The notes under the pieces were generated by a model. It did no database searches and was not told where the DNA came from. It saw only the letters and a program-made list of their open reading frames with translations. A DNA stretch of 64,000 nucleotides from a virus. A program made the translations under genes and the position numbers. The stretch is taken from IMG/VR virus record IMGVR_UViG_3300032238_000977, positions 1-64,000 of that record; one strand, written 5' to 3'. Shown piece by piece: positions 18,656 through 43,009 of this stretch (positions are counted from its first letter, which is position 1; each line of letters opens with the position of its first letter).

Positions 18656-19425
18656 TTTAGCTTTGCAGTAATTAGTAAGTGCCAACCAAGATTCTTTTCA
18701 AGAGTCCTGAACATTTCATCAGGCATAGATTCAAACCAAGGTTGTTTGAGGTATTCACCTTTCTTATAAGGTTCTATTTGATATGGAAAGATATGATCCT
18801 GTTCAATTGAAAGAACTTCATATCCTTCCAATAATTCTACCACATCTTGCTTTGTATACGTCTTTGCAATCGGACAACCATACTGTGCTTCTGGTTGATC
18901 TAAACCAGATTCAATCATATAATTTTTCCAAGAATCTTTTGCATAAAGCATAATTTTGAGAATACTATTCTCATTCATATACTTCTTAATCTCAGAAATA
19001 ATCTTTTCTGGATGGGGACTATGATGAATTACACCAAAAGAGTAAATTAAATCATAAGTTTCTACTGGGACAAAAGAGGAGAGTTCTTCGGCATTACCAG
19101 AATAAAACTCTCCAGTTTGTGCAAATACTTCAAATCGTTTTCTAGCAAGTTCAAGACTTGATTCGGAAAGTTCTACTCCAGTATAATCAGAACCAACAGC
19201 AGCAAAGTTAATTCCAACAGTTGCAAGTCCGCAACCAATTTCTAAAACTTTTTTACCTTCCCATTTTGGAAATTCAGTAAACTTAAGAATATGAGGTTCT
19301 GCCGTAAACTTTTTCCGTTCTACTTCATTAAAGTATTCTTTAGTTCCAATCTCTTTACTGGAATGTTTTACGTTACAAGGACGATCATTCCAAAACTTTT
19401 TTACGTCTTCAATTGTTGCAGTCAT
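18652..19425 (-). CDS. Class I SAM methyltransferase
   Basis: VLEIGCGL, YDLIYSFGVIHHS. Confidence 0.88.
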   Translation of the reverse strand: MTATIEDVKKFWNDRPCNVKHSSKEIGTKEYFNEVERKKFTAEPHILKFTEFPKWEGKKVLEIGCGLATVGINFAAVGSDYTGVELSESSLELARKRFEVFAQTGEFYSGNAEELSSFVPVETYDLIYSFGVIHHSPHPEKIISEIKKYMNENSILKIMLYAKDSWKNYMIESGLDQPEAQYGCPIAKTYTKQDVVELLEGYEVLSIEQDHIFPYQIEPYKKGEYLKQPWFESMPDEMFRTLEKNLGWHLLITAKLK

Positions 19426-20177
19426 AGTTTAAATGTAGGGATGGGTTCCATTTTATGTTTGTTTTGAGAGTTGAACTTTGCAAGAACTTCAACTGCTGGT
19501 CCAGTTCCATTTTCCATTGCTTCTTCAAGTTCGGTATAAGAAACTCCGATCTGATCTTCATCAGTTCTTCCGTCTTCCCAGAGACCATCTGTAGGTTGTG
19601 CATCAATGATACGTTGATCTACACCAAGATGCTTTCCAAGTTTCCATACTTCAGTTTTATAAAGATCGGCAATTGGAGCAATATCAACTCCACCGTCACC
19701 ATATTTAGTATAGAATCCTATACCATAATCTTCAACCTTATTACCAGTACCAACAACAATACCGCCAACAGAACCTGCAACCTGATACAAAGTAACCATA
19801 CGAATACGAGACTTTGTATTTGCAAGAGCAAGTTTATTAGAAACCATATCATTACCCAACCAGAATCCCAAGCTCTTGGTAAACTGCTCATAAGTGGAAG
19901 AGAGATCAACTTTTAGGGGAGTAACATTCTTATAACTATTAGAAAGAAATTCTCTATGAACTTCTGAAAGTTCTGCCTGAGAAAAAATTTGATTCAGAGG
20001 CATCGATAGGACATATGTTGGAAGTCCTGTCTCGGCACAAAGAGTTGATACAACTGAAGAATCAATACCTCCAGAAATACCAACAACCAAGGACTTAATA
20101 TTATTTGTCGTAGCGTAATCTTTAATCCAACCTACAACTCTTGTTTTTAATTCAGAATAATCAGTAATACGATTCAT
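19422..20177 (-). CDS. nadE: NH3-dependent NAD+ synthetase
   Basis: GISGGIDSS, NTKSRIRM, GTGNKVE, GFYTKYGDGGVD, LYKTEV, PTDGLW. Confidence 0.93.
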   Translation of the reverse strand: MNRITDYSELKTRVVGWIKDYATTNNIKSLVVGISGGIDSSVVSTLCAETGLPTYVLSMPLNQIFSQAELSEVHREFLSNSYKNVTPLKVDLSSTYEQFTKSLGFWLGNDMVSNKLALANTKSRIRMVTLYQVAGSVGGIVVGTGNKVEDYGIGFYTKYGDGGVDIAPIADLYKTEVWKLGKHLGVDQRIIDAQPTDGLWEDGRTDEDQIGVSYTELEEAMENGTGPAVEVLAKFNSQNKHKMEPIPTFKL

Positions 20178-21028
20178 AGTACAATCCAATTTTTGGGATA
20201 AAGATCTTTGGTATTTTTATCTGCATAAGCAGGTCCAAACCACATTTTTGGTGCAATCACTTTTTTATTTGGATTGGAAATCAACCATGCACCCCACCAG
20301 CTCATACTACTATTAGCAATAATAGCATGAGAACACAAAGACATCAAGCACAAATCGGAATATGGAGTATATGATCCATCATCATATTTTTCTTGAGGTT
20401 CTGAAATTAAAAACCTATCACTAGAGAAAAATTCTTGCTCTCTTACCCATTCAGGAGAATCAGAAAAAACAATTACAGGTTGATCATCATCAAACTCGGC
20501 AAGTGCCTTTTGATAATATTCGATTGGCTGAACAGGATGTTGATCCCCACATTGGGTATAACTCCATTTAAATCCACGAGGATCTGTAAGATTAGGATCG
20601 CCTCTGCGAACATGAAGCATAATGGGTTCTCCTTCTACAGAGTCTATCATCTCCTTACAAGGTTGCAAATGCTCATCATGAAAAGTAAATTCTTTACGAA
20701 TTTCATCTGAAATATTTTCAAAATACTTTTCAGATTGAAAGAATCCATGAAGACTTACGTTATCTGGACATTGCTCAAAGAGTTCTTCATCAAAATGAAA
20801 AAACCTTTCTCCAATGTATTTAAAATGCTCAATAAAATTTAAATTCTCTTCCTTTACAGATTCCAATTTAAAACAGTTATGAAGACTATAGTTTTCAATA
20901 CCTTTTTTATTAAACGGAGGAATACACCATTCATATCCACGATTTGCAGCAATTCCACGAATAGCAGCATACTCAAACATTTGATTTCCTAGTCTTCCTA
21001 GACTTCCAATCTGATTAAATGCTAACAT
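20174..21028 (-). CDS. Glycosyltransferase family 11
   Basis: GRLGNQMFEYA, HVRRGD, NSSMSWWGAWL. Confidence 0.92.
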   Translation of the reverse strand: MLAFNQIGSLGRLGNQMFEYAAIRGIAANRGYEWCIPPFNKKGIENYSLHNCFKLESVKEENLNFIEHFKYIGERFFHFDEELFEQCPDNVSLHGFFQSEKYFENISDEIRKEFTFHDEHLQPCKEMIDSVEGEPIMLHVRRGDPNLTDPRGFKWSYTQCGDQHPVQPIEYYQKALAEFDDDQPVIVFSDSPEWVREQEFFSSDRFLISEPQEKYDDGSYTPYSDLCLMSLCSHAIIANSSMSWWGAWLISNPNKKVIAPKMWFGPAYADKNTKDLYPKNWIVL

Positions 21029-23625: not shown

Positions 23626-24675
23626 TTATTTTGAATTTTTAATTTGATCAGAAATCCAAGTATAAGTCTTGCGAATTCCTTCTTCTAATGTTTGTTGATA
23701 ATCCCAACCCAGTTTTTCTCGGATGAGATCATTATTGGAGTTACGTCCACGAACACCAAGAGGTCCATCAATATGATTTTTCTCTACAGTCTTTGCAGAT
23801 ACTTTAGCAGCAGTATCAACCAATTGATTGATAGTAACCATTTCCTCAGATCCAATATTCACTGGTCCAATGAAGTCGGAATCCATCATTCTGCGTGTTG
23901 CTTCGATGCATTCATCAATATACAGGAAGGAACGAGTTTGTAGGCCATCTCCCCACACTTCTATGGTTCCACCTTCCTCTGGAAGGTAGGCAACTTTACG
24001 ACAGATTGCTGCTGGTGCCTTCTCTCTTCCACCTTCCCACGTCCCTTCAGGACCGAAGATATTGTGGTAACGAGCAACACGCACGGGAATATTGTAGTTA
24101 CGGTTATAAGCGAAATAAAGACGCTCACTAAAAAGTTTCTCCCAACCATATTCGGAATCTGGGTTTGCTGGATATGCGGATTCTTCACGACAGTCGGGAT
24201 TATCGGGATCAAGTTGATTATGTTCTGGATACATACACGCAGATCCAGAATAGAAAATCTTAGTCTTATTAATTCCAGTCCTCTCATTCATTTTATGTTG
24301 CTCTTCAAGAACATTCAGATTGATAGAAACTGAATTATGCATGATGTCTGCATCGTTCTCACCAGTGAAAACAAATCCAGCACCGCCCATATCAGCAGCA
24401 AACTGATAGATCTCATCAAATGTTTGAATATAACGATAAGGAACTGAATTATAGAAGTTTCCTTGGTCGCCTTTAAATTCAAGAACACGACGAACAAAAT
24501 CTACGTCTCTAAGATCTCCCTGAATAAATTCATGCGCTTCAGTGGGAGAATACTCAGGTCTCTTAAGGTCTACACCACGTACCCAATATCCTTCGGAACG
24601 TAGTCTTTTAACCATATGACTTCCGATAAAGCCACCCGCACCAAGAACAAGTGCAGTCTTAGTATATTGACTCAT
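23626..24675 (-). CDS. GDP-mannose 3,5-epimerase-like SDR
   Basis: GAGGFIG, AADMGGAGF, SACMYP, YGWEKL, EKAPAAICRK, GVRGRNS: GME signatures. Confidence 0.85.
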   Translation of the reverse strand: MSQYTKTALVLGAGGFIGSHMVKRLRSEGYWVRGVDLKRPEYSPTEAHEFIQGDLRDVDFVRRVLEFKGDQGNFYNSVPYRYIQTFDEIYQFAADMGGAGFVFTGENDADIMHNSVSINLNVLEEQHKMNERTGINKTKIFYSGSACMYPEHNQLDPDNPDCREESAYPANPDSEYGWEKLFSERLYFAYNRNYNIPVRVARYHNIFGPEGTWEGGREKAPAAICRKVAYLPEEGGTIEVWGDGLQTRSFLYIDECIEATRRMMDSDFIGPVNIGSEEMVTINQLVDTAAKVSAKTVEKNHIDGPLGVRGRNSNNDLIREKLGWDYQQTLEEGIRKTYTWISDQIKNSK

Positions 24676-24708
24676 TTTTTGATCAAAAATAATAATCTCA
24701 TATTATAT

Positions 24709-24737
24709 ATTATACTAAAAAAGGAGAGTTTATGCAA
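24709..24737 (-). promoter_or_regulatory. Sigma70 promoter of the glycan island
   Basis: TTGCAT, 17 bp spacer, TATAAT; embedded in the terminator hairpin. Confidence 0.65.
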
Positions 24738-24746
24738 CTCTCCTCT
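24717..24746 (-). terminator. Intrinsic terminator closing the pseudoknot RNA
   Basis: AGGAGAGTT/AACTCTCCT hairpin followed by T-run. Confidence 0.75.
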
Positions 24747-24751
24747 AGGTC

Positions 24752-24941
24752 TTTCAGGCTCGCCACCAATTCTTTAACTGGAAATTGGAAACCAGGCGGG
24801 GAGAGTATCCCATCCGCACCACCAGTTTTTTAAAGAAACTGGAAACTTTTAAGAGGGTCATATGACTCCACCAGTACTTTTAAAGTCTCTCCGTGACTTC
24901 GAGGGGGTCCCGACCAGTACTTTTTAAGTCTCTCCGTGACT
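24752..24941 (-). ncRNA. Tandem-pseudoknot RNA of the cyanophage wcaG/manA motif type
   Basis: Four units each ending in UGGY(G/C); GGUGCGGAUGGG..CCCGCC and UGGCGAGCC segments; lies upstream of a nucleotide-sugar epimerase. Confidence 0.7.
24870..24941. repeat. 29-bp direct repeat, two copies
   Basis: ACCAGTACTTTTWAAGTCTCTCCGTGACT at 24870-24898 and 24913-24941, 28/29 identical. Confidence 0.95.
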
Positions 24942-25188
24942 ATTGATCCCAAAATTCTTCACTGTCTTTTACATAACAAGGAACCCTATCTGGATCTAAC
25001 CATTTTGCATACTCAATATCTTCCATTGCGGTAGAACATTGCATAGCATTGTCAAATAGATAGATATCATTCCATCGTTTAGTGTATTCGTTTTGTTTTT
25101 GCATACGGTAATCAAGTTTACCGTTGATTTCAAGAATACCTGCTTCAATAAAACGATATCCTTCACGTTCCAAGATAACCTTGGTCAT
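24940..25188 (-). CDS. Hypothetical cyanophage protein
   Basis: ORF with ATGA coupling and GAGG RBS. Confidence 0.75.
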   Translation of the reverse strand: MTKVILEREGYRFIEAGILEINGKLDYRMQKQNEYTKRWNDIYLFDNAMQCSTAMEDIEYAKWLDPDRVPCYVKDSEEFWDQ

Positions 25189-25474: not shown

Positions 25475-25475
25475 A

Positions 25476-25548
25476 TGCCCCTTGCGTGGATCGAACACGC
25501 CTCAGCCGAATTATGAGTTCGGTGCATTCACCAGATTGCTAAAAGGGC
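25476..25548 (-). tRNA. tRNA with CAU anticodon (Met or Ile2)
   Basis: Cloverleaf, anticodon arm CCGAA-CT-CAT-AA-TTCGG, T-loop TTCGATC, A73. Confidence 0.9.
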
Positions 25549-25577
25549 ATTCGCTATTCGCAAATAGCGAATAGCAA

Positions 25578-25665
25578 TACGAGTGGGTGGATTCGAACCA
25601 CCTCAAAGCCGCTAATCTGGCGGAAAGAGTTTATAAGACTCCTCTGACTACCAAGTCTCACTCGC
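25578..25665 (-). tRNA. Non-canonical tRNA-Ile(UAU) with long variable arm
   Basis: GCGAGTG/CACTCGT acceptor, GGAGT-CT-TAT-AA-ACTCT, GGTGG-TTCGAAT-CCACC. Confidence 0.8.
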
Positions 25666-25713
25666 ACGAAAGTTGCCTTGAGGCAACTTATAAGACCTAT
25701 ATGTGGTCTTAAA

Positions 25714-25929
25714 TCACGAACCTTCTTCGTGATCAGTGTGGATGCGTATAAGTTCCTCATCCGAATAATCCGAAGAATCTGAAGAATCCACTATGTAATC
25801 GTAATTGGTTGTTCTTACAATAACCACTTCATTATTATCATTGTATATTTGAAATGACTCTCCAGATTCGACTCTTTCCAAGAGTTCATCAAATCTTTTT
25901 TGAAATTCTTCAACTGTAAACTTTTCCAT
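25714..25929 (-). CDS. Phd/YefM antitoxin-like small protein
   Basis: MEKFTVEEFQKRFDELLERVESGESFQI pattern plus acidic tail. Confidence 0.55.
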   Translation of the reverse strand: MEKFTVEEFQKRFDELLERVESGESFQIYNDNNEVVIVRTTNYDYIVDSSDSSDYSDEELIRIHTDHEEGS

Positions 25930-26503
25930 TAGATTCGGAGACGAGTCGTTTAAATTCGATGAGATAATCATACAGCAAATCAAATTCGTAGTCAACCCCA
26001 GCATCCATCGTAATAGAAATTTTAATATTTGATGGATCCAAATACCTTTCAAGCAACCAAACTTTATAATATGATCTAAAAAATTTAGATACAATTTTAA
26101 AGTCTAATAATTTGAAAAAATCTGCCTCAAGATCATCTGAAGATTTTTTGCTTGGATGATATACATTTATTTTATAATAGTCTTCAGAAAACCACTTCAT
26201 GTGAGATCTGACTATTTTACAATGTTCTTCGAGATCAAAATCTTGATTATTATAATAATGCATTGAAAATAAATTTAATATATTTTCAACATATACTGCA
26301 TTATATTCTGCAATATCATTCGGCATTATTTTAAAGTTCCACTCCATGTCTGGAATAAATCCACATATGAAGTGGGTTATATCATGAGAAGGTTTTGTCG
26401 GAGGTGGTTTAGGGGACGAAAAAGATTCTTGATATTCTTTATGAAGAATTTTATAATAAACCTTTCCGTTTTCCCATGACCATTCTATTTTTTGTAAACT
26501 CAT
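25910..26503 (-). CDS. Hypothetical protein
   Basis: 197-aa ORF with HDITH motif. Confidence 0.7.
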   Translation of the reverse strand: MSLQKIEWSWENGKVYYKILHKEYQESFSSPKPPPTKPSHDITHFICGFIPDMEWNFKIMPNDIAEYNAVYVENILNLFSMHYYNNQDFDLEEHCKIVRSHMKWFSEDYYKINVYHPSKKSSDDLEADFFKLLDFKIVSKFFRSYYKVWLLERYLDPSNIKISITMDAGVDYEFDLLYDYLIEFKRLVSESNGKVYS

Positions 26504-26513
26504 AATTTTTCAA

Positions 26514-26585
26514 TCGGGGCGACAGGGATCGAACCTGTGACCTCTGGTTCCCAAAACCAGCATTCTACCGCTGAACTACGCCCCG
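26514..26585 (-). tRNA. tRNA-Pro(UGG)
   Basis: CGGGGCG acceptor, CTGGT-TT-TGG-GA-ACCAG. Confidence 0.95.
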
Positions 26586-26590
26586 TAAAT

Positions 26591-26851
26591 TCACTCTACA
26601 AATTCTACCACAGGACCATTACCTTTGGCAACTACATCTTCTAAAAGATATTTTTGAACTTCGTCAAATGTTTCAAAAATTTTTTTATCATTTTCAAATT
26701 CTACCCACCAACATACATCATTTTCTGTAGGTGAATTAAGTTCTTCATCATTTTTAGGAATGGCTTCAATTATCATATGAGTATTTACACCATGCTTTTT
26801 TTCAGCCTGCATAATGGTATACATTAGAGGCAAATCAGAAATATATCTCAT
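26591..26851 (-). CDS. Hypothetical protein
   Basis: 86-aa acidic ORF on the coding strand. Confidence 0.6.
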   Translation of the reverse strand: MRYISDLPLMYTIMQAEKKHGVNTHMIIEAIPKNDEELNSPTENDVCWWVEFENDKKIFETFDEVQKYLLEDVVAKGNGPVVEFVE

Positions 26852-26959
26852 TTCAATAATTTAAATTTTTTACTTATTTCTATGTATAAGAATTATACCT
26901 ATAATTTCTGGAATAATCAATACCAAACCAGATCGGGATTGCTGCTAAAACTTCTAACA

Positions 26960-27154
26960 TCAAACTCCTCTCCAGTTCTTATATTCATAATGAAAGTATT
27001 GATCTATAGTATTATCCAGAGGGGCATCAACTTCCCATTGTGCCCATTCTTTACAAAACTGTTTAATGTATCCGTCGTTTAAGACACTTCTACCATATGA
27101 TCTCACAAAACAAGTCATCGCAAAATGATATCTTTGTTTAGTTTGCGTAAGCAT
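26960..27154 (-). CDS. Hypothetical cyanophage protein
   Basis: 64-aa ORF in a run of small genes. Confidence 0.65.
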   Translation of the reverse strand: MLTQTKQRYHFAMTCFVRSYGRSVLNDGYIKQFCKEWAQWEVDAPLDNTIDQYFHYEYKNWRGV

Positions 27155-27227
27155 GGGTCAACCCCCAATATACAAAAATTCCAACAAAACTAAAAATAGA
27201 CACTGCGGCAAAAATAGTGTTAGTCAT
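27138..27227 (-). CDS. Small membrane peptide, 29 aa
   Basis: MTNTIFAAVSIFSFVGIFVYWGLTHAYAN. Confidence 0.55.
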   Translation of the reverse strand: MTNTIFAAVSIFSFVGIFVYWGLTHAYAN

Positions 27228-27230
27228 CTT

Positions 27231-27437
27231 CTAGTTCAAAGTAATTTTAAGAAATGGAAGTAGAGGTGGAATAACTCCAACTAACCTTAAAAGTCCTTCA
27301 GCAAATAAAGAAAGAACCACCCAACCGACGCACATACTAATGATAGAAGCATTGCGGTTATGTCTTCTGATAGCAGCATCAATCATCTCCTGCACTTCTG
27401 TGCGAGTTACATAATCATCATCAAACGGTTCCATCAT
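27231..27437 (-). CDS. Hypothetical membrane protein
   Basis: EVQEMIDAAIRRHNRNAS plus a TM helix; GGAGG RBS. Confidence 0.75.
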   Translation of the reverse strand: MMEPFDDDYVTRTEVQEMIDAAIRRHNRNASIISMCVGWVVLSLFAEGLLRLVGVIPPLLPFLKITLN

Positions 27438-27583
27438 TTCCCACCTCCAAGAAATTTTTCCAAAGGATCTTTTCTTGTTTTAACTATTTCACATGCTCTC
27501 ATGTAAAACATATTTTCCATATTTCCAGACTTTTCAAATGTTTTTTTTATCTTCACCCAATTGTCGTAGGTGTGCTGATCCAT
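27434..27583 (-). CDS. Hypothetical cyanophage protein
   Basis: MDQHTYDNWVKIK...FYMRACEI. Confidence 0.7.
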   Translation of the reverse strand: MDQHTYDNWVKIKKTFEKSGNMENMFYMRACEIVKTRKDPLEKFLGGGK

Positions 27584-27696
27584 TTGATTTTTAGATTGGA
27601 TACTATTATATAATAGTCTCCAATACCAAGAAGTCAACATATGTGTTCATACCATAACACTGATAAAGAAATTGTTAAATTCGTAACTAATTTAAA

Positions 27697-27782
27697 AGGA
27701 AGATCAGGGATTCGAACCCTGGAACGCTACTAACGTTAATAGTTTTCAAGACTATCGCCATCAACCACTCGGCCAATCTTCC
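27697..27782 (-). tRNA. tRNA-Ser(UGA)
   Basis: ATAGT-CT-TGA-AA-ACTAT, long variable arm; discriminator is U rather than the usual G. Confidence 0.93.
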
Positions 27783-27793
27783 AATAAAAATCC

Positions 27794-28045
27794 TTAACGG
27801 ACTTCAAAATCTAAACGTCTTACTTTACGTTGACGCCTTGCTTCTTGATAAGCAAGATCTTCATTTGTAAGAACTCCAGATTTTGTTTTGGTATCTATTG
27901 AGTTTAACATAACAACCCGAGATAAGTCAACTGCAGAGATTTTGTCTCCTCTTATCATAGTCATATTAGGACACCCACAAGTAATACTTTTTGATGGATG
28001 TCCAATCATTTCTTTATTGCAATCTTTACATCTTATTGAAATCAT
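27794..28045 (-). CDS. Zn-ribbon hypothetical protein
   Basis: CKDC...CGC. Confidence 0.75.
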   Translation of the reverse strand: MISIRCKDCNKEMIGHPSKSITCGCPNMTMIRGDKISAVDLSRVVMLNSIDTKTKSGVLTNEDLAYQEARRQRKVRRLDFEVR

Positions 28046-28060
28046 TGTCCTTTACCCTAA

Positions 28061-28495
28061 TCACTGTAAATGAGATCTTAACATCCAAACAAACTTACCA
28101 TGGGATTCCATTAAATCCTGAACCAGATTAGCAGTTGCATATTGCTTTTGATCTTCCGATTCTTCCGAAATCTCTTTCATTAATTCACAAAACTTTTCGT
28201 TATTCTCAAGAAGTTCTTGAAGAATTTCTTTTGCTCCTGTTGAACTAGCCGCTTCTTTAATTTGCGTCACTTCAAGCATTCTTGAAAGAGAACTCAATGG
28301 TTTTACGTTTAAGTATCTCATATGCTCAGAAAGACGATCAATCTCTTCAAACATAGTTTCATACTGTCCACCAAAAAGTTGATGTAGTTGAGTGAAATCT
28401 GATCCAACTACATTCCAGTGAAATGCCCAAGTTTTATGAAATAAGACAAAAAGTGATGACTGAGCATCACTCAAGAGTTTATAAAGTTTTTCCAT
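28061..28495 (-). CDS. dps: Dps ferritin-like DNA-protection protein
   Basis: FHWNVVG..F..LH, IDRLSEH, K..WMLRS; late promoter TAAATA at 28517-28512. Confidence 0.92.
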   Translation of the reverse strand: MEKLYKLLSDAQSSLFVLFHKTWAFHWNVVGSDFTQLHQLFGGQYETMFEEIDRLSEHMRYLNVKPLSSLSRMLEVTQIKEAASSTGAKEILQELLENNEKFCELMKEISEESEDQKQYATANLVQDLMESHGKFVWMLRSHLQ

Positions 28496-28523
28496 TATAC
28501 TCTTTTTTGAGTATTTATGCAAG

Positions 28524-28595
28524 TGGGCGATACTGGATTCGAACCAGTGACCATCTCCGTGTAAAGGAGGTGCGCTACCGCTGCGCTAATCGCCC
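28524..28595 (-). tRNA. tRNA-Val(UAC)
   Basis: Cloverleaf, CTCC-TT-TAC-AC-GGAG. Confidence 0.93.
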
Positions 28596-28600
28596 TTAAA

Positions 28601-28663
28601 TGGATGGTAGGTATTCCCACTCGGATGTTAAGAAGGTGATTAACCGTTAACCCCGACCATCCA
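28601..28663 (-). ncRNA. Candidate structured RNA between tRNA-Asn and tRNA-Val
   Basis: 8-bp closing stem TGGATGGT/ACCATCCA with two internal arms. Confidence 0.5.
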
Positions 28664-28664
28664 A

Positions 28665-28736
28665 CTCCCCCGGCAAGATTCGAACTTGCGACCTGGAAAT
28701 TAACAGTTTCTCGCGCTACCGCTGCGCCACAGGGGA
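28665..28736 (-). tRNA. tRNA-Asn(GUU)
   Basis: GAAA-CT-GTT-AA-TTTC, G73. Confidence 0.94.
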
Positions 28737-28740
28737 ATAA

Positions 28741-28810
28741 AGGAAGTTACTGGACTTACACCAGTTACGAGGGCATTGTCTGCTTGTCTTGATTCTTTGA
28801 CTTAACTTCC
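28741..28810 (-). ncRNA. tRNA-like RNA lacking a normal anticodon arm
   Basis: GGAAGTT/AACTTCC acceptor, ACTGG-TGTAAGT-CCAGT T-arm, GTC/GAC D-stem, only a 3-bp/5-nt middle arm. Confidence 0.65.
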
Positions 28811-28812
28811 GC

Positions 28813-28867
28813 GATGGGGCAAGTGTGATATACCTCATAAGGATATAACAGGGACTTACCCTCTATC
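28813..28867 (-). ncRNA. Candidate hairpin RNA
   Basis: GGGTAAGT/ACTTGCCC lower stem, CCCT bulge, upper stem capped by CCT-TATG-AGG. Confidence 0.45.
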
Positions 28868-28894
28868 ATTTTATATATGGAGATAAACTCCAAG

Positions 28895-28968
28895 CGTCTT
28901 GGGAGGGACTCGAACCCCCGACCAACTCATTAGAAGTGAGATGCTCTATCCAACTGAGCTACCAAGAC
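28895..28968 (-). tRNA. tRNA-Arg(UCU)
   Basis: CTCA-CT-TCT-AA-TGAG, A20 in the D-loop. Confidence 0.94.
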
Positions 28969-28972
28969 ATAA

Positions 28973-29040
28973 GTAGGTTCCTATCGCCGCCACTCCTGAA
29001 CCTACCGAAGGAGAGTGTCGCAGTTGATTTCTCAACTCTG
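28973..29040 (-). ncRNA. Hairpin plus H-type pseudoknot leader
   Basis: AGTTGA-GAAA-TCAACT; CACTCT/GGAGTG crossed by GTAGGTTC/GAACCTAC. Confidence 0.55.
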
Positions 29041-29042
29041 AT

Positions 29043-29071
29043 ATTATACCAGTCCTTATGAAACTGGTCAA
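29043..29071 (-). promoter_or_regulatory. Sigma70 promoter inside the tRNA cluster
   Basis: TTGACC, 17 bp spacer, TATAAT. Confidence 0.8.
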
Positions 29072-29074
29072 GTG

Positions 29075-29154
29075 TGCCGTGTGGTTGTGAATCTAAATCA
29101 AACCTTTTTGATAAGTGCCCCACTGGATCTTATCTAAAGTTTTGAACCACGGCA
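29075..29154 (-). ncRNA. Candidate long irregular hairpin RNA
   Basis: Nested TGCCGT/ACGGCA, GGTT/AACC, CTTT/AAAG and GATAAG/CTTATC stems. Confidence 0.5.
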
Positions 29155-29156
29155 AG

Positions 29157-29230
29157 TGGGAAATCCTGGACTCGAACCAGGCACCTCACGATTATCAGTC
29201 GTGCGCTCTAACCAACTGAGCTAATCTCCC
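29157..29230 (-). tRNA. tRNA-Ile(GAU)
   Basis: CACGA-CT-GAT-AA-TCGTG. Confidence 0.96.
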
Positions 29231-29233
29231 ACA

Positions 29234-29322
29234 CGGAGGATGTTGGATTTGAACCAACGGAGACCCGTAAAGATCTCAAGAACTTAGCAGGTTCCCGCTT
29301 TAAGCCACTCAGCCAATCCTCC
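29234..29322 (-). tRNA. tRNA-Ser(GCU)
   Basis: GGAAC-CT-GCT-AA-GTTCT, long variable arm, G73. Confidence 0.95.
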
Positions 29323-29324
29323 AA

Positions 29325-29397
29325 TGGGTCAAGTGAGACTCGAACTCACGACTTACAGGTTAAAAGCCCGCTACTCTACCAACTGAGTTATTGACCC
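29325..29397 (-). tRNA. tRNA-Lys(UUU)
   Basis: GCGGG-CT-TTT-AA-CCTGT. Confidence 0.95.
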
Positions 29398-29401
29398 AAA
29401 G

Positions 29402-29483
29402 TGGGCAGGGAGGGATTTGAACCCCCGTAGGCAGAGCCAGCGGATTTACAGTCCGCCTCCATTAACCACTCGGACACCTACCC
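29402..29483 (-). tRNA. tRNA-Tyr(GUA)
   Basis: GCGGA-CT-GTA-AA-TCCGC, type II variable arm. Confidence 0.95.
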
Positions 29484-42891: not shown

Positions 42892-42919
42892 ATATGAATA
42901 CTTTTTAAGTATTTAGACA

Positions 42920-42992
42920 TGGAGAATAGGGGACTCGAACCCCTCACCCCCGCCGTGCAAAGGCGGTGCTCTACCAAATGAGCTAATTCCCC
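42920..42992 (-). tRNA. tRNA-Ala(UGC)
   Basis: CCGCC-TT-TGC-AC-GGCGG, G3-U70. Confidence 0.96.
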
Positions 42993-43009
42993 AAAAAACC
43001 CCTTACGGG

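What the first reader, a model, noticed from the sequence alone, without database searches (positions are those of the whole stretch)
24709..24941. Four-unit tandem pseudoknot RNA closed by a terminator that hides the next promoter
Seen (minus strand): two copies of AGUC-ACGGAGA-GACU-(A-rich)-CUGGU, then two H-type pseudoknots, AAAG-UUUCCAGUUU-CUUU-AAAAAACUGG and CUGG-UUUCCAAUUU-CCAG-UUAAAGAAUUGG, each followed by UGGYG. Both stems covary between these two copies. Known: the wcaG/manA motifs of cyanophages have this context and unknown function; the short-stem, A-rich-linker pseudoknot resembles preQ1-I aptamers; pseudoknot repeats plus a terminator is the type III antitoxin layout. Because the glycan operon has its own promoter inside the terminator, the RNA may be a free multivalent sponge or antitoxin mimic rather than a 5' UTR switch (inference).
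Basis: partly seen in the sequence, partly recalled or inferred. Interest (0 to 1): 0.72.

Follow-up and report, generated by a model that had tools for sequence, protein, structure and literature searches.

The report
Four-module cyanophage wcaG RNA array
The stretch is the known but unexplained cyanophage "wcaG RNA" preceded by two copies of an uncatalogued small knotted module, and the four-module chain ends at a terminator that carries the promoter of the sugar genes behind it, so it is probably not a simple leader switch.

Summary
On the minus strand, 24941-24761 holds four units of one design: a small pseudoknot, a single-stranded UGGY, then a G-rich hairpin.

- **Units 3 and 4 are known.** With the hairpin between them they are a full-length wcaG RNA (Rfam RF01761, 99.4 bits against a cut-off of 42).
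- **Units 1 and 2 are not catalogued.** They are a different pseudoknot class with no Rfam match. In about 200 related phage loci this class fills the same array slots as wcaG-type hairpins, and its stem and one cross pair covary without exception.
- **The array varies between phages.** It usually has 4-5 units, often with small ORFs lodged between them. The window carries the compact A-A-B-B form.
- **The terminator carries a promoter.** A terminator follows in 120 of 140 distinct arrays. Its stem covaries freely, while the TTG at its top and a TATAAT 17 nt later stay fixed. This is a PeSL-like terminator/promoter.

Function is still unproven. My best guess (about 0.4) is a terminator-insulated RNA that offers UGGY docking sites to a common partner, possibly tRNA 3' ends. 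A read-through switch (about 0.3) is not excluded. The type III antitoxin and preQ1-I readings are not supported. Earlier agents of this scan found the same array type on other genomes.

The parts
24940..25188 (-). Upstream 82-aa ORF (gp206-like, no Pfam family). Its UAG stop overlaps the first stem of unit A1.
   Evidence: ORF list, no Pfam hit. 356 relatives in IMG/VR, most followed directly by an A-type unit. Annotated 'similar to gp206' in S-SKS1.
24911..24941 (-). Unit A1: stem AGUC/GACU (24941-24938 with 24930-24927), loop ACGGAGA, A-rich linker, cross pair C24936:G24920, tail UGGU (24916-24913).
   Evidence: Sequence, repeat family D1. Alignment A1: stem 100% paired with compensatory changes, cross pair 98 of 98 (CG 75, UA 23). 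No Rfam hit.
24900..24912 (-). Hairpin HP1 (CGGG-ACCCC-CUCG) between units A1 and A2.
   Evidence: Sequence. A G-rich/C-rich hairpin stands at this slot in relatives. Pairing was read from the sequence only and not tested by covariation.
24868..24898 (-). Unit A2: second copy of the A-type unit, tail UGGU at 24873-24870.
   Evidence: The MFE fold shows the hairpin.
24855..24869 (-). Hairpin HP2 (GGAGUC-AUAU-GACCC), the conserved element just 5' of wcaG in most relatives.
   Evidence: It is conserved in sequence and shows no compensatory changes.
24752..24850 (-). wcaG RNA (RF01761). Unit B1 is 24849-24817, central hairpin HP3 is 24817-24795, unit B2 is 24795-24761, and the match runs on through the conserved 3' flank (GAGCCUGAAA) to 24752.
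   Evidence: cmscan 99.4 bits, E 5e-20, model positions 1-98 of 98. Helices and both pseudoknots covary.
24717..24746 (-). Intrinsic-terminator-like hairpin (11 bp, loop GCAUA) and U run.
   Evidence: Terminator scan, MFE fold. Present in 120 of 140 distinct arrays, with 71 different 5' arms.
24709..24737 (-). Sigma-70-type promoter built into the terminator: -35 TTGCAT (24737-24732), 17-nt spacer, -10 TATAAT (24714-24709).
   Evidence: Sequence. TATAAT is exact in 89 of 120 relatives and TTG stays at the stem top while the stems vary. It is the only strong composite of this design in the window. The generic scan missed it because the -35 matches only 3 of 6.
23626..24675 (-). First gene of the glycan operon: NAD-dependent epimerase/dehydratase, 349 aa.
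   Evidence: Pfam PF01370 at 7.8e-37 and PF16363. Glycosyltransferases and a second epimerase follow.

Best explanation
What it is (shown). The stretch is a four-module non-coding RNA array of a T4-like cyanophage. Each module is a small H-type pseudoknot, then a single-stranded UGGY, then a G-rich hairpin. Modules 3 and 4, with the hairpin between them, are the known wcaG motif. Modules 1 and 2 belong to a second, uncatalogued pseudoknot class (A-type) that fills the same array slots as wcaG-type hairpins in relatives.

How it is transcribed (inferred from sequence). No terminator-like site or ORF gap precedes the array, so it is taken to be transcribed as the 3' end of the upstream unit of tRNA genes and small ORFs. 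It stops at its own intrinsic terminator. The terminator's top and 3' flank carry the promoter of the glycan operon, so most glycan mRNAs would not contain the array.

How it most likely works (inferred). The pseudoknots are interchangeable scaffolds. The working part is the invariant UGGY held between two helices, repeated four times. That makes the RNA a multivalent docking platform for one common partner, not a ligand-sensing leader. The best candidate partner is the single-stranded NCCA 3' end of tRNAs, as in T-box discriminators and RNase P. A protein is equally possible.
For: - Identity: wcaG at 99.4 bits.
- Modularity: three pseudoknot classes (A, B, C) with different loops occupy the same slots and all end in UGGY followed by a G-rich hairpin. 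In one locus (L178) an A unit stands in place of B1 directly in front of the wcaG central hairpin.
- Structure: all helices and cross pairs covary, while U-G-G of the tail is invariant in alignments A1 and A2.
- Variable arrays: 3-6 units, with ORFs lodged between them. The window's A-A-B-B form recurs in 22 of 128.
- Insulation: 120 of 140 distinct arrays end in a hairpin plus U run 10-25 nt after the last tail. TATAAT is exact in 89 of them, and TTG stays at the stem top while the stems vary.
- tRNA link: arrays lie in tRNA-rich regions, and in some loci a tRNA gene touches a unit. In the window, the unit 1 and unit 2 tails are 8-nt complements of the CCA-completed 3' ends of the phage's own tRNA-Pro and tRNA-Ala. 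The summed match is 27 against 21.8 in shuffles, P = 0.026.
Against: - No transcript ends, binding data or partner are known.
- About 70% of arrays precede nucleotide-sugar or glycan genes, and a terminator sits just behind the last module. Both are classic features of a cis-acting switch.
- In the 20 arrays without a terminator, some are followed directly by an ORF start and so lie in a true 5' leader; others are followed by further units or a tRNA gene.
- The tRNA complementarity is marginal: P = 0.056 against purine-rich controls. Beyond the first 4 nt it would have to open the acceptor stem. UGGU and UGGC match the commonest tRNA ends anyway.
- Upstream and downstream neighbours are about equally conserved, so synteny does not say which side the RNA belongs to.
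Confidence: 0.4

Rival explanations
1. Cis-acting read-through switch. The wcaG part, perhaps helped by the extra modules, binds a small molecule or an uncharged tRNA. That decides whether the terminator 10-25 nt behind it forms, and so sets how much upstream transcription runs on into the glycan operon. The built-in promoter supplies a basal level.
For: - Weinberg et al. 2010 rated wcaG a probable cis-regulator and riboswitch candidate (PMC2864571).
- Of 135 downstream ORFs, 60 are epimerase/dehydratases, 22 are cytidylyltransferase-like and 4 are RfbA-like, with further families that look glycan-related by their N-terminal sequence.
- A terminator follows in 86% of arrays.
- The C-rich 3' strand of the central hairpin can pair with the purine-rich 5' arm of the terminator. 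Matched pairs give -10.56 and mismatched pairs -10.18 kcal/mol, with 1 of 200 shuffles as low.
- In some arrays that lack a terminator, the motif abuts an ORF start.
Against: - Terminator stems change freely (71 different arms) with no matching change in the conserved motif. The complementarity is generic for any G-rich arm, and the matched excess is only 0.4 kcal/mol and confounded by relatedness.
- A conserved promoter downstream of the motif gives mRNAs that lack it.
- Three pseudoknot classes with different loops share only UGGY, which argues against one small-molecule pocket.
- Modules also stand in front of, or inside the ends of, unrelated small ORFs.
- Downstream genes also include hli, 2OG-Fe(II) oxygenase-like and unknown genes.
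Confidence: 0.3
2. RNA punctuation for stability or processing. The compact pseudoknots with A-rich loops at ORF ends block exonucleases or guide endonuclease cuts. This turns the long early transcript of tRNAs and small ORFs into stable pieces.
For: - Units sit at or across the stop codons of upstream ORFs, and in some loci directly after tRNA genes.
- They are repeated between small ORFs.
- The last unit lies just 5' of the 3' end set by the terminator.
Against: Nothing explains the invariant UGGY tail or the conserved GG in A-type loops. No processing sites are known. The metatranscriptome contigs gave no usable ends.
Confidence: 0.12
3. Processive antitermination RNA of the HK022 put or Bacillus EAR type. 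The folded array modifies the RNA polymerase that made it, so that it reads through the following terminator and those inside the long glycan operon.
For: The layout is a structured RNA, then a terminator, then a long polysaccharide operon. From my own knowledge, not checked here: EAR acts in a polysaccharide (eps) operon and put sites precede terminators.
Against: There is no sequence or Rfam similarity to put or EAR. The built-in promoter makes most operon transcripts independent of the array. Modules are also scattered among small ORFs.
Confidence: 0.08
4. Mainly a DNA-level feature. The conserved modules and the terminator/promoter act as recombination linkers, like PeSLs, that shuffle small ORFs in the hyperplastic region. 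The RNA folds would be secondary.
For: ORFs of at least four families are found inserted between units in different combinations, and compact ORF-free versions also exist. PeSLs of T4-type phages are proposed to work this way (PMC2839356, PMC4122927).
Against: Compensatory changes in every helix and in the cross pairs show selection on RNA pairing, not only on DNA identity. Only one such composite element lies in this 64-kb window.
Confidence: 0.05
5. Type III antitoxin or antitoxin mimic: pseudoknot repeats that neutralise a ToxN-like endoribonuclease of the host.
For: Only the general look: tandem pseudoknot units followed by a terminator.
Against: - The units are heterogeneous. Two are 97% alike; the others differ in class.
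- The gene behind the terminator is an epimerase.
- No antitoxin RNA family matched at E up to 10.
- No ToxN domain was found in the 78-kb record, but the control of that search was silent, so this is weak.
Confidence: 0.02

Closest known systems
wcaG RNA motif (Rfam RF01761; Weinberg et al. 2010, PMC2864571)
   Same: 24752-24850 is a full-length, high-scoring member, with the same three hairpins, the same hosts (T4-like cyanophages) and the same kind of downstream genes (nucleotide-sugar enzymes).
   Different: - The published 98-nt model covers only the last two modules.
- Here, and in about 200 relatives, it is the 3' end of a longer array that includes a second pseudoknot class absent from Rfam.
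- The structure line of the Rfam model shows the loop-to-5'-flank pseudoknots as unpaired, yet they covary. I could not see the paper's figure, so I do not know whether its drawing includes them.
- A terminator with a built-in promoter separates it from the genes it was thought to control.
PeSL, promoter-early stem-loop cassettes of T4-type phages (Arbiol et al. 2010, PMC2839356; Comeau et al. 2014, PMC4122927)
   Same: An intergenic composite of a stem-loop terminator and a sigma-70-like early promoter in a hyperplastic region of a T4-like phage. The 5' arm is G-rich and the 3' arm C-rich. Small ORFs come and go beside it.
   Different: PeSLs are described as many dispersed copies in coliphage and vibriophage genomes. 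Here one specific version, with its -35 at the top of the stem, is tied to the 3' end of wcaG arrays, and it is the only strong copy in the window. That paper does not mention cyanophages.
T-box riboswitch discriminator and the RNase P L15 loop (RNAs that pair with tRNA NCCA ends); from my own knowledge
   Same: A single-stranded UGGN next to a helix. N here is U or C, matching the A or G discriminator bases.
   Different: There is no Stem I or specifier loop and no T-box Rfam hit. There are four sites, not one. tRNA binding has not been shown. Complementarity beyond 4 nt is only marginally above chance.
preQ1-I riboswitch aptamer
   Same: The topology: a short stem, an A-rich linker, and a 3' segment that pairs with the loop.
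   Different: No match to the preQ1-I model even at E up to 10. There is no queuosine gene context, and the conserved nucleotides differ.

Membership tests
wcaG RNA (RF01761) | Covariance-model score at or above the gathering score (42 bits) over the full model | tested here: met
   99.4 bits, model positions 1-98 of 98, at 24752-24850 on the minus strand.
wcaG RNA (RF01761) | Two similar hairpins and a central hairpin supported by covariation | tested here: met
   Helices 97.1%, 95.7% and 99.7% paired on 107 sequences. The two outer hairpins have many compensatory changes (6 and 5 pairs); the central hairpin has one.
wcaG RNA (RF01761) | Lies upstream of exopolysaccharide or high-light genes in cyanophages or marine DNA | tested here: met
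   An epimerase/glycosyltransferase operon lies downstream. About 70% of 135 relatives have glycan genes there.
Transcriptional riboswitch (general) | Aptamer followed by an intrinsic terminator | tested here: met
   Terminator at 24746-24720, and in 120 of 140 relatives.
Transcriptional riboswitch (general) | A conserved alternative pairing (anti-terminator) that excludes the terminator | tested here: inconclusive
   There is generic G-rich/C-rich complementarity. Matched pairs give -10.56 and mismatched pairs -10.18 kcal/mol, with 1 of 200 shuffles as low. The effect is small and confounded by relatedness.
Transcriptional riboswitch (general) | Ligand binding | not testable with these tools
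   No ligand is reported in the papers found.
PeSL (promoter-early stem-loop) | Sigma-70-like -35 and -10 boxes combined with a stable intergenic stem-loop in a T4-like phage | tested here: met
   TTGCAT, 17 nt, TATAAT around an 11-bp stem. The boxes are conserved and the stems vary in relatives.
PeSL (promoter-early stem-loop) | Many dispersed copies flanking ORFans in the hyperplastic regions | tested here: not met
   Only one strong composite of this design was found in the 64-kb window.
preQ1-I riboswitch | Match to the family's covariance model | tested here: not met
   No preQ1-I hit at E up to 10. The only preQ1-type hit is a chance preQ1-II match (E 0.96) on the other strand, in the AT-rich promoter region.
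Type III toxin-antitoxin antitoxin (ToxI-like) | Array of near-identical direct repeats | tested here: not met
   Only two units are near-identical (97%). The other two belong to a different class and have different stem sequences.
Type III toxin-antitoxin antitoxin (ToxI-like) | A toxin endoribonuclease gene directly downstream of the terminator | tested here: not met
   The downstream gene is an NAD-dependent epimerase. No ToxN domain was found in the record, but that search's control was silent.
T-box riboswitch | Stem I with a specifier loop and a T-box antiterminator; match to the family model | tested here: not met
   No T-box hit at E up to 10. Only the UGGN element is shared.

The most novel reading that the evidence does not exclude
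The wcaG array is a phage-encoded multivalent docking RNA for the NCCA 3' ends of tRNAs. Each UGGY, clamped between a pseudoknot and a hairpin, pairs with the end of an uncharged tRNA. It would work either as a T-box-like sensor that sets read-through into the glycan operon or as a sponge that holds or protects tRNAs during infection. That would be the first such device in a virus, and in cyanobacteria, where to my knowledge T-boxes are not found.
Probability: 0.15. Interest if true: 0.85.

Novelty: new variant of a known kind. Interest (0 to 1): 0.55.

Why it matters
wcaG has been listed as an orphan riboswitch candidate since 2010. In the cyanophage papers I found it is still annotated as a cis-regulator of exopolysaccharide genes, with no test of that role.

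Three results change what should be tested.
- The 98-nt motif is only the end of a modular chain.
- Pseudoknots of different classes are interchangeable in that chain, while the UGGY tails are fixed.
- A conserved terminator with a built-in promoter usually cuts the chain off from the sugar genes.

The experiments to do therefore use whole arrays, tail mutants and trans partners such as tRNA ends or proteins, not just ligand screens on the 98-nt piece. The result also gives a defined second module class (A-type) that could be added to RNA family databases.

Tried and rejected
- **RNA evidence.** Twenty-four metatranscriptome runs hold only 5-9% of the sampled words. I laid four of them. They gave short contigs of relatives, not of this phage. 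Two contigs from one study stop at 24717 in the terminator's U run, while contigs from two other studies cross the terminator. These are contigs without strand or ends, and DNA carry-over is possible, so they say nothing about expression, 3' ends or read-through.
- **Leader-peptide attenuation.** UGG-CGN-GCN-UGA after unit B2 looked like Trp-Arg-Ala-stop with synonymous changes. I rejected this. The stop is kept in only 89 of 140 arrays, 85 of 140 have no in-frame ATG, the other two frames are just as open, and indels in the central hairpin shift the frame.
- **Translation start in HP2** (GGAG, 5 nt, AUG). In many relatives the AUG is replaced by CUG, UUG, ACG or AAG.
- **Stop-codon read-through or frameshift signal.** The position of the upstream stop relative to the unit varies: in the first stem, before it, or in the A-rich linker.
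- **A third wcaG-type hairpin (B0) in relatives.** It shows no pseudoknot support: 1.33 of 4 pairs, the same as shuffles. It overlaps the end of a membrane-protein ORF.
- **Whole-array fold energy.** It is not unusual (z = -1.08). This is expected, because the folding program ignores pseudoknots.
- **ToxN search of the record.** No hit, but the control genomes were silent too, so it is uninformative.
- **First attempt to place tRNA ends by script.** It mis-set several acceptor boundaries. I redid it with boundaries taken from the Rfam hits.

Full report
**1. What is there.** On the minus strand, the 82-codon ORF 24940-25188 ends in a UAG that overlaps the first stem of a structured stretch. 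That stretch runs to the start of an epimerase gene (ATG at 24675). I read four units of one grammar: a small pseudoknot, a single-stranded UGGY, then a G-rich hairpin.
- A1, 24941-24911, then HP1.
- A2, 24898-24868, then HP2.
- B1, 24849-24817, then HP3.
- B2, 24795-24761, then a short linker and a terminator-like hairpin at 24746-24720 with a U run.

A1 and A2 are 29-nt direct repeats, 97% identical and 43 nt apart.

**2. Half of it is a known RNA.** cmscan places a full-length wcaG RNA (RF01761) at 24752-24850 with 99.4 bits against a gathering score of 42. B1, HP3 and B2 are that motif. Weinberg et al. 2010 described it from marine metagenomes and T4-like cyanophages as a riboswitch candidate upstream of exopolysaccharide or high-light genes (PMC2864571). 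Later papers only annotate it. I found no ligand, no transcript mapping and no mention of a longer array. The upstream half (24851-24941) matches no Rfam family even at E up to 10.

**3. Relatives.**
- blastn against phage genomes found the region in 309 records, nearly all Synechococcus or Prochlorococcus myoviruses.
- Five annotated loci (Bellamy, SynMITS9220M01, S-SZBM1, S-SKS1, S-SRM01) all carry wcaG.
- I collected 80 IMG/VR loci through the upstream protein and 120 through a wcaG core pattern that does not depend on the flanks.
- Together these gave 140 distinct wcaG instances.

**4. The wcaG pseudoknots are real.** I used an alignment of 107 distinct wcaG sequences (A2) and a structure that includes the two loop-to-5'-flank pseudoknots.
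- 94.1% of cells are paired, against 79.9% in shuffles (0 of 500 shuffles reach it) and at most 55% when partners are slid by one to three columns.
- The B2 pseudoknot is 98.4% paired. It changes on both sides at two of its four pairs: UA 79, CG 21, AU 4 at one, and GC 78, UA 14, AU 12 at the other.
- The two inner pairs of the B1 pseudoknot are 92% paired.
- An independent script gave the same picture.

The structure line of the Rfam model shows these nucleotides as unpaired. I could not see the published drawing.

**5. The upstream units are a second module class.** Ninety-nine distinct copies align without trouble (A1).
- The 4-bp stem is 100% paired, with compensatory changes at all four pairs.
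- The second loop base pairs with a purine four bases before the tail in 98 of 98 sequences (CG 75, UA 23, no exception).
- A subclass with a longer linker adds a further covarying pair (49 of 49 by my count of the table) around an invariant bulged GG.

The window's two copies belong to the short subclass. For them only the hairpin and that one cross pair are supported. GG in the loop and C-UGGU after the linker are invariant.

**6. Modules are interchangeable and arrays vary.**
- A-type units, wcaG-type (B) units and a third type (C, with a perfect 5-bp second stem) occupy the same slots.
- In one locus an A unit stands directly in front of the wcaG central hairpin. In three loci a C unit does. 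Elsewhere an A unit replaces the hairpin that precedes HP2.
- All types end in UGGY followed by a G-rich hairpin.
- Of 128 arrays with enough flank, 70 have four units and 32 have five. These are counts from a rough script, and a few distant 'B' calls may be chance.
- The commonest forms have a small ORF between units. The window's ORF-free A-A-B-B form occurs 22 times.
- The ORF nearest upstream is a small membrane protein (55), the gp206-like protein (25), a coiled-coil protein (19) or another small protein (12).

**7. The terminator with a promoter inside.**
- 120 of 140 arrays have a hairpin plus U run that starts 10-25 nt after the last tail.
- The stems differ (71 distinct 5' arms).
- The TTG at the stem top and loop, and a hexamer 17 nt downstream that is exactly TATAAT in 89 cases, stay fixed.

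Composite terminator/promoter cassettes (PeSLs) are known in other T4-type phages, where both activities were shown (PMC2839356, PMC4122927). In this window it is the only strong element of that design, so it looks like a fixed partner of the array and not a dispersed repeat.

**8. Switch or not.**

For a cis-acting switch:
- About 70% of downstream first genes are nucleotide-sugar or glycan enzymes (the window's operon).
- The terminator lies just behind the motif.
- Some arrays without a terminator abut an ORF start.
- The C-rich strand of HP3 can pair with the purine-rich terminator arm.

Against it:
- That complementarity is generic. Matched pairs give -10.56 and mismatched pairs -10.18 kcal/mol.
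- Terminator stems drift with no matching change in the motif.
- The built-in promoter makes mRNAs that lack the motif.
- Three pseudoknot classes share only the tail, which is hard to square with one small-molecule pocket.
- Modules are also spread among unrelated small ORFs.

I rate the insulated docking-RNA reading slightly higher (0.4) than the switch (0.3).

**9. The tRNA lead.**
- A 4-nt UGGN next to a helix is how T-box leaders and RNase P pair with tRNA NCCA ends (my own knowledge).
- The array lies at the end of a block of tRNA genes (12 in the window).
- Earlier agents of this scan proposed the same partner on other genomes.

I tested it here with the window's own tRNAs. None of them encodes CCA.
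- The A1 tail matches the CCA-completed end of tRNA-Pro over 8 nt.
- The A2 tail matches tRNA-Ala over 8 nt.
- B1 matches 6 nt and B2 matches 5 nt.
- The sum is 27 against 21.8 in shuffles (P = 0.026), or P = 0.056 against purine-rich controls.

That is marginal. Pairing beyond 4 nt would have to open the acceptor stem. It stays a lead, at about 0.15.

**10. Rejected readings.** preQ1-I and type III antitoxin membership fail their defining tests. A leader peptide, an HP2 start codon and a read-through signal are not conserved. The metatranscriptome contigs were uninformative.

**11. Verdict.** The core is already known (wcaG). Beyond the literature I could search, three things are new: the modular array with a second, covariation-supported module class, the interchangeable scaffolds with fixed UGGY tails, and the conserved terminator/promoter boundary. 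This scan has reported the same array type before on other genomes.

Noticed in passing
window 24672-24701 (-): A 9-codon mini-ORF (AUG at 24701) starts about where the built-in promoter should initiate. It ends in a UGA that overlaps the epimerase start as AUGA (24675-24672). Similar short ORFs ending in AUGA stand before the same gene in at least one relative (L016).
   Followed up: partly
L048, L080, L110, L181 (relatives): A third module class (C) stands in place of wcaG hairpin B1: GUCC-UCGUCGGAU-GGAC, an A/U-rich linker, then GCCGAC-UGGUG. Its second pseudoknot stem is a perfect 5 bp (GUCGG/CCGAC). The heptamer CGGAUGG is shared by the C-type loops, many A-type loops and the wcaG central hairpin.
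   Followed up: partly
L092, L129, L153, L171 (relatives): In these loci the terminator/promoter is replaced by a G/C hairpin with TTGAC in its loop, followed directly by a tRNA gene. L111, L126, L143 and L178 carry an extra fifth wcaG-type unit after B2.
   Followed up: no
window 25475-29483 and 42919-42993 (-): Twelve tRNA genes lie on the same strand as the array, and none encodes CCA. The nearest (tRNA-Met, tRNA-Ile) lie about 550 nt upstream of the array, with only two small ORFs between.
   Followed up: partly
window 19422-20189 (-): An NAD synthase (PF02540, 5e-48) closes the run of epimerase and glycosyltransferase genes, which is an unusual companion for a glycan operon.
   Followed up: no
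window 24747-24761 (-) and relatives: The linker after the last tail comes in two main forms, GAGCCUGA and GUGCAUGA. They differ at two positions that look like third codon positions, but the coding reading failed. The pattern is unexplained.
   Followed up: yes
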